From: Hyphomicrobiaceae bacterium
GTDB taxonomy: Bacteria > Pseudomonadota > Alphaproteobacteria > Rhizobiales > Hyphomicrobiaceae
Direction: 5' to 3'
DNA length: 64,000 nucleotides
Assembly (NCBI GenBank): GCA_051009975.1
Contig: JBPCWA010000510.1
Span: forward strand, 3,158 to 67,157
A model generated the notes under the pieces. That model searched no databases. It had not been told where the DNA came from and was given only the letters and a program-made list of their open reading frames with translations. The stretch's first letter is position 1. Every line of letters begins with the position of its first letter. Of the stretch, positions 5,615 through 34,207 are shown piece after piece. Both the position numbers and the translations under genes were made by a program.

Positions 5615-6186
5615 GCCTGATTGCCCTTTGACCTGAGTTGCCGGGCGCCTTTGTTGTTGCTTTTGCTACTACGACGATAGATCACAACGCCAACTCCTTC
5701 GACCGCATCAAAAACCTCTGTCTTTTGCACCGAGACGCGGACGGCTGAAGCCAACTCGTTCTGCAGTATGAATGTTGCCACATCCTCGGCCCAGGTCTCG
5801 ACAAGGTCAATGTGCTCGTCGGATGCTGCTCGCGTTTGAATGTATTCTACGGCGTCTGCGTACGACACGTACTTACCTGTCTGACGAACAATTTCTGTGT
5901 AGGCGGGGACGGTTTCGATTTCTATGTCGAAACGCATGCCTTGGCGCTGTGTTCGTTCGAAGTCATGTACGCCTATAAATGCTGCGACTTGCAGGCCTCG
6001 AATGACGACCGCGTCTTGCTTCTGCGCGCAAAAGCAAGACTTGACTAAGACGGATGCATCGGATGGGCTCGGCATAAGTAGGGCAACTCTGTTAAACAAA
6101 CCATTGACTGTTTTGGAGTGATGGATGGGACAAGCGTTGCGCCGGCTCGAAAGCAATCCCCGCTCAATGAAACGGACGTAATTCAT
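5611..6186 (-). CDS. folB: dihydroneopterin aldolase; the true start may be the internal Met at 6075
   Basis: IRGLQVAAFIGVHDFERTQRQGMRFDIEIE and the later LVETWAEDVATFIL match the FolB fold. There is a 4-nt overlap with the folK start. The N-terminal ~37 aa of the long ORF look non-native. Confidence 0.85.
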   Translation of the reverse strand: MNYVRFIERGLLSSRRNACPIHHSKTVNGLFNRVALLMPSPSDASVLVKSCFCAQKQDAVVIRGLQVAAFIGVHDFERTQRQGMRFDIEIETVPAYTEIVRQTGKYVSYADAVEYIQTRAASDEHIDLVETWAEDVATFILQNELASAVRVSVQKTEVFDAVEGVGVVIYRRSSKSNNKGARQLRSKGNQA

Positions 6187-6418
6187 CGTTGGATCATGGC
6201 CAATCAGTCAACGCCAACAAGTCATAACAGGTCAGTTATGCTGAATTAGTTATCGCAGGTCTGTTGTCGCAATTCAATTAGCGCAAGCCAGTCACAATCT
6301 CGCGTTTCATTCGAATGAGGCCCCCCGGTCCGGCCGATAGGCAGCAAATCGAATTTTTGTGGAACCAGATCAAATAAACCGCGACGGGGCTAGACCGGAT
6401 TGTCGACTTAAACCGTTT

Positions 6419-6454
6419 CCAAAAAAGTAGAACTGGCACGAGGGAAAGTGCCAG
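6419..6454 (-). terminator. Rho-independent terminator candidate for the small minus-strand operon 7170->6518
   Basis: Perfect 7-bp stem CTGGCAC/GTGCCAG (6433-6439 / 6448-6454) with an 8-nt loop. On the minus strand it is followed by TTCTACTTTTTT. Confidence 0.5.
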
Positions 6455-6517
6455 CCCTGTTCTCGGCTCTAATTTCGATGCCGGCTCTGGGTGCGGGAAG
6501 TGACGGGTTCGGAACTG

Positions 6518-6730
6518 TCAGGCGGCGAGTTTCGTTGATTGATCAGAGAGTGCGTCGGCGATTGCTTCGACTGCGTGCCTCCAATCTTGGGCTGCATCTG
6601 CGTGTGCTAGTCCGAAAGCGTCTAGAGCGTCCGCAGGCGAACCGCCGTCTCGAAAAATGCGTGCACAAGTTTGGCGAGCGATGTCTTGTGCATGCTGCCA
6701 TTGCTGCGGATTAATTTCACTCCGTCTCAT
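6518..6730 (-). CDS. hypothetical small protein (about 70 aa from MRRSEINPQQW...); start uncertain, the ORF is open up to 6952
   Basis: The C-terminal half looks helical and protein-like (QQWQHAQDIARQTCARIFRDGGSPADALDAFGLAHADAAQDWRHAVEAIADAL). Weak GAGG-like SD before Met 6730, and a terminator downstream. No family recognised. Confidence 0.4.
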   Translation of the reverse strand: MRRSEINPQQWQHAQDIARQTCARIFRDGGSPADALDAFGLAHADAAQDWRHAVEAIADALSDQSTKLAA

Positions 6731-6948
6731 CGGATGGGCCTCGCTGTCCAGTGTTACGCTAATGTTTGTTTTGTGCATTATATCAAGCGGCAGATGCGAT
6801 CCGTGCTTCGGTTTTGCGACGCGATACCGGTTCGGCCAAAACTTCCAAGCATGACCTGTAATGTCAGTGGTCGGCCGCATCTGCCAACTCGATTGACGGG
6901 CCCGGGCACGTGGTGCTCCGTCGGTTTGTCTGAGGCGTGGCCGCCGTG

Positions 6949-7170
6949 TCAACGCTGCACTCCCCAGTTGGTCTCGGCGACAACTGTGTCGCCGTGTTTT
7001 TCGTTAAGCCACCACACTGTGCGGTCAGCGGCAGATGTTGGTGCCGTCAGTTGAACGCGATCAATGACGCGGTTGGTTGCCGAGCCAAGTGACTGCCAAT
7101 CTTCGGTAGGTTGGGCCGAAGCGAATGGTACAGCCGAAGCAAACGTGTGGTTGGGATTGGTTTTGTACAT
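6949..7170 (-). CDS. hypothetical 73-aa protein
   Basis: ATG at 7170 is preceded by a GAGG about 10 nt upstream. Its stop overlaps the upstream end of the next ORF by 4 nt. No family recognised. Confidence 0.3.
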   Translation of the reverse strand: MYKTNPNHTFASAVPFASAQPTEDWQSLGSATNRVIDRVQLTAPTSAADRTVWWLNEKHGDTVVAETNWGVQR

Positions 7171-7322
7171 TGGTAGAACGCCTCACAGACAGGAACGTAC
7201 GCTGTTACGTACACTTCTACTTTAAGTTTAGGGACACACGACGTTTTGCGTTAGGGCTACGCTGACGTGATGTGAGCACCTGAGTTCGAAGGGCAAGCAT
7301 TGAAAAATGCTCAGTGCAGAGT

Positions 7323-7550
7323 AACGCGAGACTGAGATACGCGGGATTTGGGAACGCGAAACGGAGGTACGCAGGCTTGGAAAACGCGATACTGAGATAC
7401 GCAGTACTGTGAAACGCGAAACTGAGATACGCGGCACCGTGGAACGCGAAACAGAGATACGCGGCACTGTGAAACGTGAGCCTAAGATACGCTGTACGTG
7501 GAGACGCAAAACTGGAGTACGCAAGGCTAACTCAACGCGATACGAGCGAC
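7323..7550. repeat. Iteron-like array: seven 20-bp cores AACGCGAnACTGAGATACGC spaced exactly 30 bp apart, plus a degenerate eighth
   Basis: Cores start at 7323, 7353, 7383, 7413, 7443, 7473 and 7503. The 10-bp spacers are variable while the cores are conserved. The eighth partial copy is aacgcgatacgagcgac at 7534. Confidence 0.9.
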
Positions 7551-8204
7551 ACTTCAAACTAGCGGTTGGCAAGCCGCTGACGCATACGCAATACCGTGGA
7601 ACTCGAAGCGGCTTGCCTTAGATTATTGAACGTGCCAACGAGCACGTTTCTCGGGGACGCATGCCCCAACGCAGACGCAACAGAACAAAACGCAACGCTA
7701 CTTCTACAACGCAGTACGAAACCATTCTGCAGATCGAAGCGGTCACTCGACCGCTGAGCTGGCGATTGGCCAGTAACGCAAACTCGTTGGTCCAGTTCGG
7801 GTTGCCCGAGCTGTTCCTTGGCGGAACGTTTGAGCAAGGCTCGCGGAGTCATACGCAACAGTTTACTCTCCCTTAACTCGCACTTGCCAACGTGAGCCGA
7901 TACGCAGGTTCACACTGTGTCTCGCCGATGAGGGAGAATAAATCGTTGCTTCGTGGCCACATCGGGGCAGCTATCTGGCGCGGCGATGGAATTTCAATTG
8001 ACAAGTGTTCAGAATAACATGCTTTTTTGTGTTGTTTCGATATGGTTCTTGAAAAAAGAATTTAATATCAGAGAGTTAGGTTTTGTAAGTCAGTTGGCGG
8101 CAGATGTTGGGTTTTCCCCAGCAGAATGCGGGTGGGCTAGGTTTTGCGGCCGCGAGGCTTGTTGAGTGCATCGTCCGTCGATCTCTTGCGTATCGGTAGG
8201 CGTG

Positions 8205-8738
8205 CTAGGGTGCGTTGCTGGCGCTCGCTGCTGCTGCGGCTTTCGCGCATCCCATGGCGAGAGCAATGCACGCGATCGCGTTCCAGCCCGCAAACGAAAG
8301 CCCGATAAATCGCCACGTTGCTTCGCCGCAGCTCGCAAAAGAGGTCGATGATAGTTCCTCGACCAGGCTTGTTCCGCTCGAGCTCAATGGTTGGATGGCC
8401 TGTCCGTCGCACGTTGCAGGTCCTTGCCAAAATCCCCATTCCACGCCGGCATGGTAGGTGGCCAGCCCGGCATTCAAAAGAAAGCCCGTAGCGATGAGTG
8501 CAAAGAGAATGGCCGCGGGGCGGTCGCGCTCTAGGCCTACAAGAATGAGCCCGCCAAATAATGCTGGAATGGCAATGTAGTAGGCGTATCGCTGTTGCAG
8601 GCACAGGGGGCATGGTTGGTACCCTCCGAAGTGCTCGAAACCCAGCGCTGTCAATATGACAGCGGTCGCGGCGAATAGTGAGAACGAGCCCCATATGTAG
8701 GCAGGTTGGTCGGATATCGCTGATTTAGATTGCGCCAT
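8205..8738 (-). CDS. dsbB: disulfide bond formation protein B family (DsbB/BdbC-like)
   Basis: Four-TM profile with the first-loop CPLCLQQRYAYY motif and a second Cys pair (ATCDG ... SCGE) in the large loop. Confidence 0.85.
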   Translation of the reverse strand: MAQSKSAISDQPAYIWGSFSLFAATAVILTALGFEHFGGYQPCPLCLQQRYAYYIAIPALFGGLILVGLERDRPAAILFALIATGFLLNAGLATYHAGVEWGFWQGPATCDGQAIQPLSSSGTSLVEELSSTSFASCGEATWRFIGLSFAGWNAIACIALAMGCAKAAAAASASNAP

Positions 8739-28163: not shown

Positions 28164-28578
28164 GGGCCAAGTGGCCCGCAGGTGATATGCGTACGACGCA
28201 TGCCTCACATGCGACGCTACTCCTTGTCGAAAAGTCATGTCTTGCGATTTATTATGGATGCTGTGACGGACAGCTAGTGAAGGCTGTACCCTCCCTTCAA
28301 CGCCTTCGACCCATCCTCTTGGATGTGGCTAACTTTGAGCCGGGCTTTGTGCCCGGCTCTCTTTTTTGGGTCTGCATGAGCGGTGTTCAAACAGAGTTCG
28401 CGCGTGCCACCCTTAAGCCTTTGAGACACAATCTGCCCTTGACGCGTACCACGGCTTTTGGGCGAGACGTTGCAGGTTCCGCTTGCAGGCAGTATCACAC
28501 TCGCCAAAAGCCGGTTGTTGGACAGTCCGTTGTTGGACAGTCCAATGTTAGAAGATTGAACGGGGAGGCCGTGGCGAG

Positions 28579-33856: not shown

Positions 33857-34088
33857 ATTGCCATTACCCTTGGTTGGAGCTGCGAGGTCTTAGAGAAACA
33901 TATGCTCCAGGTCTCAAAAACCGTGCCAAACGGGAGATTGGGCCTCGCTCAGAATAATATTTTCATGTGAGAACCGGGTTGGCCTGGCGACATCCGGCCA
34001 ATGATGCACGACTAAGATGCATCAAGCATAACAGGCGCAAAGAGATATACAGTTGACGATACGCGGCTATTCGAAGTATCAAATGGGT

Positions 34089-34142
34089 TCGTGGTGATTT
34101 GGCCGGCCGGCTTGCAGCCACGTAAAAAAACTCGCTAAAAGG
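34089..34142 (+). promoter_or_regulatory. SAM-II (alphaproteobacterial metA-type) riboswitch
   Basis: tcGTGGTGATTTGGCCGGCCGGCTTGCAGCCACGTAAAAAAACTCGCTAAAAGG matches my memory of the SAM-II consensus (GAUUUGGC...GGCUUGCAGCCAC...AAA..CGCUAAAA pseudoknot/triplex strands). It sits in the 5' leader of metZ. Confidence 0.7.
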
Positions 34143-34152
34143 CCGCGCGCGG

Positions 34153-34207
34153 ACCTGGCTCTGATCGCTCGGCTTTTGCGAGCTGTGATCGGCCAGGTTT
34201 TTTTGTG
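34153..34207 (+). terminator. Rho-independent terminator (riboswitch expression platform) ahead of metZ
   Basis: Long imperfect hairpin CCTGGC-ctGATC-GCTCG ... CGAGC-tgtGATC-gGCCAGG followed by TTTTTTT, about 45 nt before the metZ ATG. Confidence 0.6.

What the first reader, a model, noticed from the sequence alone, without database searches (positions are those of the whole stretch)
7290..8100. Iteron-like array: seven 20-bp cores at exact 30-bp phasing, decayed motif copies and an AT-rich block in a gene-poor gap
Cores AACGCGAnACTGAGATACGC start at 7323, 7353, 7383, 7413, 7443, 7473 and 7503, so the spacing is exactly 30 bp, roughly three helical turns. The cores are conserved while the 10-bp spacers vary freely. 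That is the pattern expected for a protein-binding site array and not for coding sequence. Further ACGCA/ACGCG-containing fragments continue to about 7910 (gacgcatacgcaatac, aacgcagacgcaacagaacaaaacgcaacgc, gatacgcagg). A perfect 10-bp inverted repeat, GGCAAGCCGC (7568-7577) / GCGGCTTGCC (7608-7617), lies within this stretch. A markedly AT-rich stretch (about 7990-8092: ...gaataacatgcttttttgtgttgtttcgatatggttcttgaaaaaagaatttaatatcag...) follows. Iterons next to an AT-rich DNA-unwinding-type block are the classic layout of plasmid or phage replication origins. Here there is no rep, par or integrase gene, and the flanks are housekeeping genes (the fol operon and dsbB). The array also lies directly upstream of the small minus-strand ORF pair 7170->6518, so it could instead be a multi-operator regulatory region. 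I cannot assign it to any known element.
Basis: seen in the sequence. Interest (0 to 1): 0.7.

Follow-up and report, generated by a model that had tools for sequence, protein, structure and literature searches.

The report
Repeat-rich leader RNA, not an origin
The 30-bp repeat array is real, but it is not a replication origin: it sits in a roughly 1.2-kb untranslated leader, packed with GCGU motifs and apparently under DNA-damage (SOS) control, upstream of a tiny orphan protein gene conserved across Hyphomicrobiaceae, and no known RNA family matches it.

Summary
The array is confirmed at 7323-7522 (period 30, no indels, unique in the window). It is better read on the minus strand as 14 units of 15 nt, GCGT-N4-CAGT-N3, running 7522->7313.

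It is not an iteron origin. There is no Rep gene, no DnaA box here and no GC-skew switch, and the locus is a vertically inherited chromosomal locus.

In about 80 Hyphomicrobiaceae species, the roughly 1 kb upstream of a conserved ~70-aa orphan protein (here 6730->6518) is packed with sense-strand GCGT. Density is 3.3-4.5 per 100 nt against a background of 0.6, and GTTGCGT is enriched 123-fold. The motif falls in all three reading frames, and the complement is depleted.

Two RNA hairpin modules covary across species and hold G.U pairs only on the sense strand. Invariant GCGU sits in their loops.

An exact alphaproteobacterial SOS box (GAAC-N7-GAAC) lies at the 5' end in 58/82 loci (7 of 8 bases here), and a DnaA box is present in 58/82 loci.

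Best reading: an SOS-controlled long leader RNA that displays many GCGU sites for an unknown binder. The window's array is a lineage-specific tandem amplification of that module. Rfam, Pfam, NCBIfam and PDB have no match.

The parts
7313..7522 (-). Tandem array: 14 units of 15 nt (GCGT-N4-CAGT-N3) in two alternating subtypes.
   Evidence: TRF; 20-mer search; 15-nt register and per-position counts. As RNA it folds no better than shuffled sequence on either strand (z = -0.8 and +0.45).
7563..7655 (-). Conserved two-hairpin RNA motif. Hairpin 1 stem is 7629-7635 with 7642-7648. The hairpin 2 loop carries invariant GCGUAU.
   Evidence: Covariance model R1 scores 82.9 bits here, the only hit in the window. 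It hits once per locus on the sense strand in 62 of 82 sources. Of the cells, 82.7% are paired against 35-47% when the partner is slid. 18 of 22 pairs show compensatory changes, and 0 of 500 shuffles reach the observed values. G.U pairs number 73 against 12 A.C on this strand.
6731..7927 (-). Inferred untranslated leader of about 1.2 kb. It is dense in GCGU on the sense strand. The 5' end is inferred, not mapped.
   Evidence: 31 GCGT in the 1050 nt upstream of the gene. ACGC density on the + strand is unique in the window. The same strand-specific density is seen in about 80 related loci. There is no terminator-like site on the minus strand between 7927 and 6731.
7908..7922 (-). SOS-box-like site AGAC-ACAGTGT-GAAC, matching 7 of the 8 specified bases of GAAC-N7-GAAC.
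   Evidence: An exact GAAC-N7-GAAC lies at the homologous position in 58 of 82 loci and almost nowhere else within +-5 kb. The motif is the Caulobacter and alphaproteobacterial LexA operator, GTTCN7GTTC (PMC9578287).
7935..7962 (-). Putative promoter: -10-like TATTCT (7940->7935) and a weak -35-like ATGTGG (7962->7957). This is inferred.
   Evidence: A conserved TTWATT element lies about 15 nt upstream of the SOS box across loci. The consensus scan found no sigma-70 site here, so this falls below that tool's threshold.
7988..8014 (-). Conserved upstream block TTCTGAAC-N-TGTCAATTGAAATTCC, of unknown role.
   Evidence: nhmmer finds block a in 46 loci, always on the sense strand.
7965..8095 (.). 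AT-rich intergenic stretch between the dsbB stop and the promoter-like block.
   Evidence: GC is 0.43-0.455. Relatives are also AT-rich here, and most carry a DnaA box in or near this stretch. The window has no such box with at most 1 mismatch.
6776..6897 (-). Second conserved RNA module. It has a long stem, 6789-6798 paired with 6876-6885. In relatives an inner hairpin presents CAGU-N3-GCGU in its loop.
   Evidence: Alignment A3 of 17 loci: 93.6% of cells paired against 27-47% when slid, and 17 of 24 pairs with compensatory changes.
6518..6730 (-). Conserved small protein gene (70 aa, motif ARQxCARIFRDGGSPADAL, C-terminus ...AA). A GAGG Shine-Dalgarno sequence lies 8 nt upstream.
   Evidence: Homologues P0003-P0022. 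122 species hits in the genome collection. 97 clusters among 1.84 billion representative proteins, many of them 66-80 aa. The start context matches that of relatives. Translation. No match in Pfam, NCBIfam, PHROGs, PADLOC or PDB.
6429..6458 (-). Intrinsic-terminator-like hairpin followed by a T run, 60 nt after the small protein's stop codon.
   Evidence: It is the only minus-strand terminator-like site in 6200-8300.

Best explanation
The array is part of the long (about 1.2 kb) untranslated leader of a transcript read on the minus strand. The transcript starts at a promoter just downstream of dsbB and runs through to a conserved 70-aa orphan protein gene (6730->6518) and its terminator.

This module is conserved across Hyphomicrobiaceae. 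Its parts, in order, are:
- a promoter-like block carrying a LexA (SOS) operator,
- a GCGU-dense leader with two covarying hairpin modules,
- the small protein gene.

A DnaA box also lies nearby in most species.

The leader carries 20-40 copies of GCGU (consensus GUUGCGU, or CAGU-N3-GCGU), always on the sense strand. Some sit in the loops of conserved hairpins and most lie in weakly structured sequence.

The window's 30-bp array is a lineage-specific tandem amplification (14 x 15 nt) of that GCGU module. Other species reach the same motif density with scattered copies or with other short tandem arrays.

**Proposed mechanism (inferred, not shown).** After DNA damage LexA is cleaved and the RNA is made. 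Its many GCGU sites then bind several copies of an RNA-binding factor, possibly the small protein itself. This either controls translation of the small protein or titrates the factor, in the manner of CsrB/RsmZ or the TRAP-binding trp leader.

**Shown:** the array; family-wide strand-specific motif density; its non-coding nature; the covarying sense-strand RNA hairpins; conservation of the SOS box and the DnaA box; absence of origin features.

**Inferred:** the transcription start, LexA control in this organism, RNA-level reading of GCGU, and the binding partner.
For: **Motif density.**
- GCGT on the sense strand rises to 3.3-4.5 per 100 nt between -900 and -500 (1.5-4.5 over -1100 to -150) in about 80 loci, against 0.6 background. 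ACGC falls to 0.1-0.3.
- GTTGCGT is enriched 123-fold against the flanks and 19.5-fold against a Markov-1 expectation. ACGCAAC occurs 0 times against 3.3 expected.
- The motif is spread over all three frames and no long ORF is shared.

**RNA structure.**
- Covarying hairpins are supported.
- G.U pairs outnumber A.C 73 to 12 on the sense strand.
- Invariant GCGU lies in both hairpin loops.
- The array half-unit CAGTTTCGCGT is the same as the loop motif of block c.

**The array itself.**
- GCGT positions in the array have 1/56 mismatches against 38/154 elsewhere.
- GCGT-bearing tandem arrays recur in relatives, for example L058 with 18 nt x 8.3 and L050 with 15 nt x 9.

**Regulatory sites and transcript boundaries.**
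- An SOS box is present in 58/82 loci (PMC9578287).
- A DnaA box is present in 58/82 loci.
- There is no minus-strand terminator before the gene, and there is one just after it.

**Databases.** Rfam has no match.
Against: - No expression data exist. The promoter is below the consensus scanner's threshold and the transcription start is inferred.
- The window's SOS box matches only 7 of 8 bases, and the window lacks the DnaA box.
- Predicted accessibility of GCGU is no higher than that of tetramers with the same composition.
- The array RNA is not distinctive in folding.
- The roughly 5.1-nt lattice of motif distances is also close to half a DNA helical turn, so DNA-level binding is not excluded.
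- No binding protein has been identified. The small protein has no recognisable nucleic-acid-binding fold.
- The loci were collected through the protein, so whether the RNA can occur without it is untested.
Confidence: 0.6

Rival explanations
1. DNA-level array. The direct GCGT repeats are binding sites on double-stranded DNA for a protein, possibly the small protein. They would form a large operator or nucleoprotein platform downstream of the SOS promoter, for autoregulation, a roadblock or titration. The analogy is to ParR/parC or omega-type arrays.
For: - The array has exact 15/30-bp phasing.
- Motif pair distances are periodic at about 5.1 nt out to about 50 nt, near half a helical turn.
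- LexA and DnaA boxes show that the locus is read at the DNA level as well.
- GCGU shows no excess accessibility in RNA folding.
- The best, though not significant, Foldseek neighbours of the small protein are helix-turn-helix DNA binders.
Against: - Peaks at 5 and 15 nt are as strong as those at 10 and 20, which would place sites on opposite faces of the DNA helix.
- Invariant GCGU sits in the loops of hairpins that covary with G.U pairs on one strand only. That has no meaning for duplex DNA.
- The reverse orientation is never used and its complement is depleted.
- The small protein has no significant match to any DNA-binding family.
Confidence: 0.2
2. Neutral minisatellite. This particular 30-bp array is a recent slippage or unequal-crossover expansion with no function of its own, sitting in a leader whose function lies elsewhere.
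For: - The array sequence is found in no other genome or metagenome.
- It lies in the variable middle of the leader, where relatives differ.
- Unrelated tandem repeats also occur in this region in relatives, for example L001 (40 nt) and L007 (18 nt), without GCGT.
Against: - Divergence among copies is strongly uneven: GCGT is kept at 55 of 56 positions while other positions have decayed by 25%.
- The array supplies 13 of the window's 31 exact GCGT motifs (14 units, one degenerate) and brings the count into the range seen in relatives, where most loci have 18-41.
- 63 of the 91 TRF rows (overlapping rows included) from the upstream regions have consensus units carrying GCGT, and none carries ACGC.
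Confidence: 0.12
3. Iteron-type replication origin, or a remnant of an integrated plasmid or phage replicon.
For: There are tandem 20-bp cores with an AT-rich block nearby. DnaA boxes occur at the homologous locus in many relatives.
Against: - There is no Rep, Par or integrase gene.
- There is no DnaA box or CtrA site in the window's copy, and GC skew is monotonic.
- Flank skew has the same sign in 42 of 53 relatives, with r = 0.76.
- The locus keeps conserved chromosomal synteny with dsbB.
- The motif is strand-specific and embedded between covarying RNA hairpins.
- Relatives have only one DnaA box per locus.
Confidence: 0.02
4. Type III toxin-antitoxin-like system. A repeat RNA would be processed into units that neutralise a downstream toxin.
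For: A tandem direct-repeat array lies directly upstream of a small gene on the same strand.
Against: - The downstream protein is 70 aa and has no ToxN, AbiQ, CptN or PADLOC match.
- There is no terminator between the repeats and the gene.
- Relatives have scattered motifs rather than a regular array.
- The locus is core-chromosomal, not mobile.
Confidence: 0.02
5. Coding repeat. The array would encode a 10-aa repeat protein, from minus-strand ORF 7572->7228 (RISVSRFTVP...) or plus-strand ORF 7409-7621.
For: The period is a multiple of 3, and ORFs are open across the array on both strands. Gene callers predicted 199-200-aa ORFs in the gap in some relatives.
Against: - GCGT falls in all three frames in relatives, and no ORF is shared.
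- The motif is read in a different frame in the window (CGT codon) than in the L002 ORF (GCG codon).
- There are no Pfam or PHROGs hits.
Confidence: 0.02

Closest known systems
CsrB/RsmZ/RsmY-type protein-sequestering RNAs (and CrcZ)
   Same: One RNA carries many copies of a short motif (GGA or A-rich there, GCGU here). Some copies sit in hairpin loops and some in linkers, so that several copies of a binder can be held at once.
   Different: - There is no sequence or structure homology (Rfam has no match).
- The motif differs and the partner is unknown.
- This one is about 1.2 kb and appears to continue into a protein gene rather than being a free-standing sRNA.
- It sits behind an SOS box.
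- It is confined to Hyphomicrobiaceae.
TRAP-binding trp leader of Bacillus (11 G/UAG triplets with 2-3 nt spacers)
   Same: Both are a 5' leader with a short motif repeated on a lattice of about 5 nt. In the TRAP case a multimeric protein reads the motif to control the downstream gene.
   Different: - The motif here is a tetramer or heptamer, with 20-40 copies spread over about 1 kb instead of 11 copies in about 55 nt.
- No TRAP homologue is known or was tested in these genomes.
- The lattice is loose.
ToxI antitoxin RNA of type III toxin-antitoxin systems
   Same: Both are a tandem direct-repeat array immediately upstream of a gene on the same strand.
   Different: - There is no ToxN-family toxin.
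- There is no terminator between the array and the gene.
- The regular array is seen in only one lineage.
- The locus is chromosomal core, not mobile.
Plasmid or phage iteron origins (pSC101, R6K, P1, lambda ori)
   Same: Both have tandem cores of about 20 bp with more variable spacers and an AT-rich stretch close by.
   Different: - There is no initiator gene.
- The phasing is 30 bp, built from 15-nt half-units.
- The conservation is strand-specific and tied to a transcript.
- There is no skew switch.
- The locus is vertically inherited.
LexA-regulated small-protein genes of Alphaproteobacteria (e.g. Caulobacter sidA; SOS box GTTCN7GTTC)
   Same: Both have a direct-repeat SOS box at the promoter of a very small protein gene (PMC9578287 and PMC4211646).
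   Different: - The protein here is soluble, helical, 70 aa and unrelated in sequence, whereas SidA is a 29-aa membrane protein.
- No 1-kb repeat-rich leader has been described for known SOS genes.

Membership tests
Iteron-type replication origin | Tandem direct repeats of about 17-22 bp that bind an initiator | tested here: inconclusive
   Repeats are present, but they resolve into 15-nt half-units centred on GCGT. Binding cannot be tested here.
Iteron-type replication origin | Adjacent gene for a Rep initiator (or par/integrase genes of a mobile replicon) | tested here: not met
   No Pfam or PHROGs domain of that kind is found in any ORF from 4.5 to 11 kb. The neighbours are folB, dsbB and exoD.
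Chromosomal origin (oriC) | GC-skew switch and a cluster of DnaA boxes | tested here: not met
   Skew is monotonic, and there is no box with at most 1 mismatch within 6-9 kb. In relatives the flank skew has the same sign in 42/53 loci, and there is only one box per locus.
Dispersed REP/BIME-like repeat family | Many copies scattered through intergenic regions | tested here: not met
   All hits in the window lie in the one array. The six metagenome hits are isolated chance 20-mers in unrelated contexts. The rest of this genome could not be searched.
Type III toxin-antitoxin (ToxIN-like) | ToxN/AbiQ-family endoribonuclease gene downstream of the repeats, separated from them by a terminator | tested here: not met
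   No Pfam or PADLOC hit. No minus-strand terminator between 7313 and 6731.
Any Rfam family | Covariance-model match | tested here: not met
   There are 0 hits at E <= 10 in 6100-8300. There are none in the homologous region of six relatives.
LexA (SOS) regulon, alphaproteobacterial type | GTTC-N7-GTTC direct-repeat operator at the promoter | tested here: met
   It is exact in 58/82 loci at one conserved position, with 62 sites there and 0-2 per 200-bp bin elsewhere. The window's copy matches 7 of 8 bases at 7908-7922. The motif is taken from PMC9578287.
LexA (SOS) regulon, alphaproteobacterial type | Induction by DNA damage and LexA binding | not testable with these tools
   No expression or binding data are available.
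Multivalent protein-binding RNA (CsrB-like or TRAP-leader-like) | Many copies of one short motif on the transcribed strand, some presented in hairpin loops | tested here: met
   density and strand; invariant GCGU in the loops of covarying hairpins.
Multivalent protein-binding RNA (CsrB-like or TRAP-leader-like) | A cognate RNA-binding protein that recognises the motif | not testable with these tools
   The small protein has no known fold match. No CsrA or TRAP search was made.
Multivalent protein-binding RNA (CsrB-like or TRAP-leader-like) | Motifs kept accessible (single-stranded) | tested here: inconclusive
   plfold P(unpaired) for GCGU is 0.058 against 0.03-0.09 for tetramers of the same composition. 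The complement is depleted to 0.56 of expectation, and ACGCAAC is absent.
HdaB / DnaA domain IV-like small proteins | Sequence similarity to DnaA domain IV | tested here: not met
No member hits Pfam Bac_DnaA_C.

The most novel reading that the evidence does not exclude
This would be a previously undescribed class of DNA-damage-inducible regulatory RNA. It is a leader of about 1.2 kb, controlled by an SOS box and flanked by a DnaA box, and its 20-40 GUUGCGU sites act as a multivalent sponge or assembly scaffold for an unknown RNA-binding factor, possibly the co-encoded 70-aa protein with a protease-tag-like ...AA end. It would link the SOS response, and perhaps control of replication initiation, to RNA-based titration in budding Hyphomicrobiaceae.
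Probability: 0.3. Interest if true: 0.8.

Novelty: new variant of a known kind. Interest (0 to 1): 0.62.

Why it matters
Large, conserved non-coding RNAs with extreme motif repetition are rare in bacteria, and each one characterised so far (CsrB, RsmZ, CrcZ, the TRAP leader, ToxI) exposed a regulatory principle. This element has several features that make it worth following up:

- It is conserved in more than 60 species and carries two covarying structural modules.
- It has a 123-fold enriched heptamer.
- It has an SOS operator and a DnaA box.
- It precedes an orphan protein found in only 97 clusters among 1.84 billion representative proteins.
- It has no match in Rfam, Pfam, NCBIfam or PDB.

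It gives a directly testable handle on SOS-linked post-transcriptional control in an under-studied group of Alphaproteobacteria.

It also corrects two public gene calls. More generally, it shows that an 'iteron-like' array seen in raw sequence can be the local, amplified form of a family-wide RNA feature.

Tried and rejected
- **Rfam.** Nothing was found at gathering threshold or at E <= 10 on the window, nor in six relatives.
- **The 73-aa ORF (6949-7170).** Its only hit among 5.8 billion proteins is itself, and tblastn finds nothing in 86 loci. I treat it as not a gene.
- **The look-up of encoding contigs.** DsbB and P0001 are not on record.
- **Coding-repeat idea.** Rejected by the frame analysis.
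- **Dispersed-repeat idea.** The metagenome scan with the 20-mer gave six isolated chance hits.
- **Origin idea.** Rejected on GC skew, DnaA and CtrA boxes in the window and on flank skew in 53 loci.
- **Fold of the array RNA.** It is no different from shuffles on either strand.
- **Accessibility of GCGU by plfold.** There is no signal. An earlier full partition-function script timed out.
- **Small-protein function.**
  - The AF2 model has three helices (pLDDT 75).
  - Foldseek against PDB gives nothing with E <= 0.001.
  - The PDB profile search finds nothing.
  - NCBIfam, PHROGs and PADLOC find nothing.
  - There are weak DUF732 hits in 7 of 21 members (best E = 0.003), which I judge uninformative.
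- **HdaB / DnaA domain IV resemblance.** I saw it by eye (a DAFG motif), but hhalign rejects it.
- **5' stem GTTCGC/GCGAAC in block a.** The stem is not kept where the direct repeat is kept, so it is read as a LexA box and not as an RNA hairpin.
- **Promoter motifs.** Pho-box, sigma-54, EcfG and RpoH readings of block a were considered by eye and do not fit the required spacings.
- **Exact GTTC-N7-GTTC at 28385.** It lies between a LysR gene and leuC and is probably chance.
- **Literature.** Searches for the motif or for a described Hyphomicrobium RNA found nothing relevant.
- **Chi-site idea.** GTTGCGT is not over-represented in the flanks, where its frequency is at about the chance level, and the locus lies in either orientation relative to GC skew.
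Full report
**Observation.** The array exists as described.
- TRF reports 7323-7522 with period 30, 6.7 copies and 4% indels.
- The 20-mer core matches six times with at most 3 mismatches at exact 30-bp steps, against 0.04 expected, and nowhere else in the 64 kb. The seventh copy is more diverged.
- The inverted repeat at 7568-7578 and 7607-7617 is perfect.
- The AT-rich block has GC 0.43.
- ACGC density on the + strand peaks at 23 per 500 bp against a window mean of 2.8.
- The neighbours are folB and dsbB, and no rep, par or integrase domain is present.

Read on the minus strand, the array is 14 consecutive 15-nt units (7522->7313) of two alternating subtypes, GCGT-N4-CAGT-N3. GCGT is kept at 55 of 56 positions while the other positions have decayed by 25% (p = 3.5e-5).

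**Where the window comes from, and what the 'ORF pair' is.** The window is from a Hyphomicrobiaceae MAG.
- The 73-aa ORF (6949-7170) has no relative among 5.8 billion proteins or in 86 related loci.
- The second ORF does have relatives. They form a small family of proteins of about 70-100 aa with the invariant core ARQxCARIFRDGGSPADAL and a conserved ...AA end.
- The family has only 97 clusters among 1.84 billion representatives, and many members are 66-80 aa.
- Comparison with close relatives puts the real start at ATG 6730, with a GAGG Shine-Dalgarno sequence in the same context as 'ccaatccgATG' in relatives.
- The protein has no match in Pfam, NCBIfam, PHROGs, PADLOC or PDB. It is predicted to be three helices, with no significant structural neighbour.

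**The array is a local form of a family-wide feature.** I fetched 80 loci from different species through the protein, plus six from metagenomes.
- In most of them dsbB lies 1.0-1.9 kb upstream on the same strand.
- In nearly all of them the gap is packed with GCGT on the gene's strand. Density is 3.3-4.5 per 100 nt between -900 and -500, against 0.6 in the flanks, while the complement ACGC drops to 0.1-0.3.
- The heptamer GTTGCGT is enriched 123-fold against the flanks and 19.5-fold against a Markov-1 expectation. ACGCAAC never occurs.
- The motif falls in all three frames and no ORF is shared, so the region is non-coding.
- Distances between motifs show a lattice of about 5.1 nt that is visible out to about 50 nt.
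- Short tandem arrays of GCGT-bearing units recur in many species, for example 18 nt x 8.3 in L058 and 15 nt x 9 in L050, and none carries ACGC.
- The window's exact 20-mer is not found as an array anywhere else.

So the window's array is a lineage-specific amplification of a module that other species keep in scattered or differently amplified form.

**Evidence for RNA.** Two blocks of the gap are conserved in sequence and covary.

Block b (window 7563-7655) has two hairpins.
- A covariance model built from 39 sequences finds it once per locus, on the sense strand, in 62 of 82 sources. That includes 23 loci not used to build the model. It is found only once in the window.
- Of the cells, 82.7% are paired against 35-47% when the partner is slid. 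18 of 22 pairs show compensatory changes, and no shuffle out of 500 reaches the observed values.
- G.U pairs outnumber A.C 73 to 12, which fits RNA of the window's minus strand and not of the other strand.

Block c (6776-6897) lies just upstream of the gene.
- It has a long stem, 6789-6798 with 6876-6885.
- In relatives it has an inner hairpin whose loop presents CAGU-N3-GCGU, the same string as the array's half-unit.
- 93.6% of cells are paired against 27-47% when slid, and 17 of 24 pairs show compensatory changes.

The only minus-strand terminator-like site in 6200-8300 lies 60 nt after the gene.

**DNA-level control elements.** The most conserved part of the 5' block is an exact GAAC-N7-GAAC.
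- It occurs in 58 of 82 loci at one position and almost nowhere else within +-5 kb.
- This is the direct-repeat LexA operator of Caulobacter and related Alphaproteobacteria, GTTCN7GTTC (PMC9578287).
- A TTWATT element lies about 15 nt upstream of it.
- The window's copy is AGAC-ACAGTGT-GAAC at 7908-7922, with TATTCT at 7940->7935. The consensus promoter scan did not reach its threshold here.

A DnaA box is also kept at the locus.
- It is present with at most 1 mismatch in 58 of 82 loci and is often a perfect TTATCCACA.
- It lies either right after the dsbB stop, about 165 nt upstream of the SOS box, or about 85 nt downstream of it in loci without dsbB.
- The window has lost it.

**Why it is not an origin.**
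- Cumulative GC skew rises through the locus, and there is no DnaA or CtrA site within 6-9 kb.
- In 53 relatives the two flanks have the same skew sign in 42, with r = 0.76, and the locus occurs in both orientations relative to skew.
- There is one DnaA box per locus, not a cluster.
- There is no initiator gene.
- The neighbouring genes are housekeeping genes in conserved order.

**Mechanism.** I take the locus to be a LexA-controlled transcription unit whose leader of about 1.2 kb displays many GCGU sites. The most likely role is multivalent binding of an RNA-binding factor, possibly the co-encoded protein. This would control that protein's synthesis or titrate the factor, as in CsrB/RsmZ or the TRAP-binding trp leader.

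This step is inferred, and several findings weaken it:
- Predicted accessibility of GCGU is not raised.
- The array RNA folds like shuffled sequence.
- The 5.1-nt lattice is also compatible with binding to duplex DNA at half-turn steps.

I therefore keep a DNA-level array as the main rival (0.2). A neutral minisatellite comes next (0.12). That reading is disfavoured by the selective retention of GCGT in the array.

**Novelty.** I found no Rfam family, no protein family and no paper that describes this element. The kind of element, a motif-repeat regulatory RNA, is known. The motif, the SOS and DnaA context, the size and the protein partner are new.

Noticed in passing
window 6518-7170 (-): The public gene calls of this MAG look wrong. 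ACR2PG_20405 (73 aa, 6949-7170) has no relative anywhere and lies inside the leader. ACR2PG_20400 (120 aa) is extended at its N-terminus across a covarying RNA stem. The conserved protein is 6730->6518 (70 aa).
   Followed up: yes
related loci L001-L086, about 700-1900 nt upstream of the small protein motif: A DnaA box (TTATCCACA, often perfect) is kept in 58 of 82 loci, in two different positions relative to the SOS box, although flank GC skew shows the locus is not an origin. The reason is unknown. The window's copy lacks it.
   Followed up: partly
small protein family (window 6518-6730; P0003-P0118): Nearly all members end in (R/K)(R/K)AA. A C-terminal ...AA resembles the ends recognised by ClpXP (ssrA-like). 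From general knowledge, this suggests a short-lived protein.
   Followed up: no
L023 (JBNOAI010000001.1) and L067 (JBLNBZ010000118.1): An 873-kb contig labelled Leptospira interrogans LS0056 and a contig of a 'Bacteroidota' MAG both carry this Hyphomicrobiaceae-type locus. L023 is almost identical to L019 in the conserved blocks. Contamination or mis-binning in the public records is likely.
   Followed up: no
L001 5623-5969 (also L002, L003): A different tandem repeat lies directly upstream of the small gene and is interrupted by an assembly gap (a run of N). Its 40-nt units each hold a GGCTGCC/GGCAGCC hairpin and no GCGT. The leader region seems prone to tandem amplification in general.
   Followed up: partly
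window 6292-6319 (+): There is a partial inverted copy of the array unit (TCACAATCTCGCGTTTCA..., 18-28 nt, 71-83% complementary to array units). It lies beyond the small gene's terminator and before folB. It is probably chance, given 14 similar units to match against.
   Followed up: no
window 34081-34158 (+): SAM_alpha riboswitch (RF00521, 76.4 bits). It is the only Rfam hit at gathering threshold in the window.
   Followed up: no
window 28385-28399: This is the only exact GTTC-N7-GTTC in the window. It lies between a LysR-type gene and leuC, not near a known SOS gene, and is probably chance.
   Followed up: partly
related loci, -1150 to -150 relative to the small protein motif: Distances between GCGT motifs are periodic at about 5.1 nt, with peaks at 5, 10, 15, 20-21, 25-26, 30-31, 36, 45-46 and 51. 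The window was excluded from this count.
   Followed up: partly
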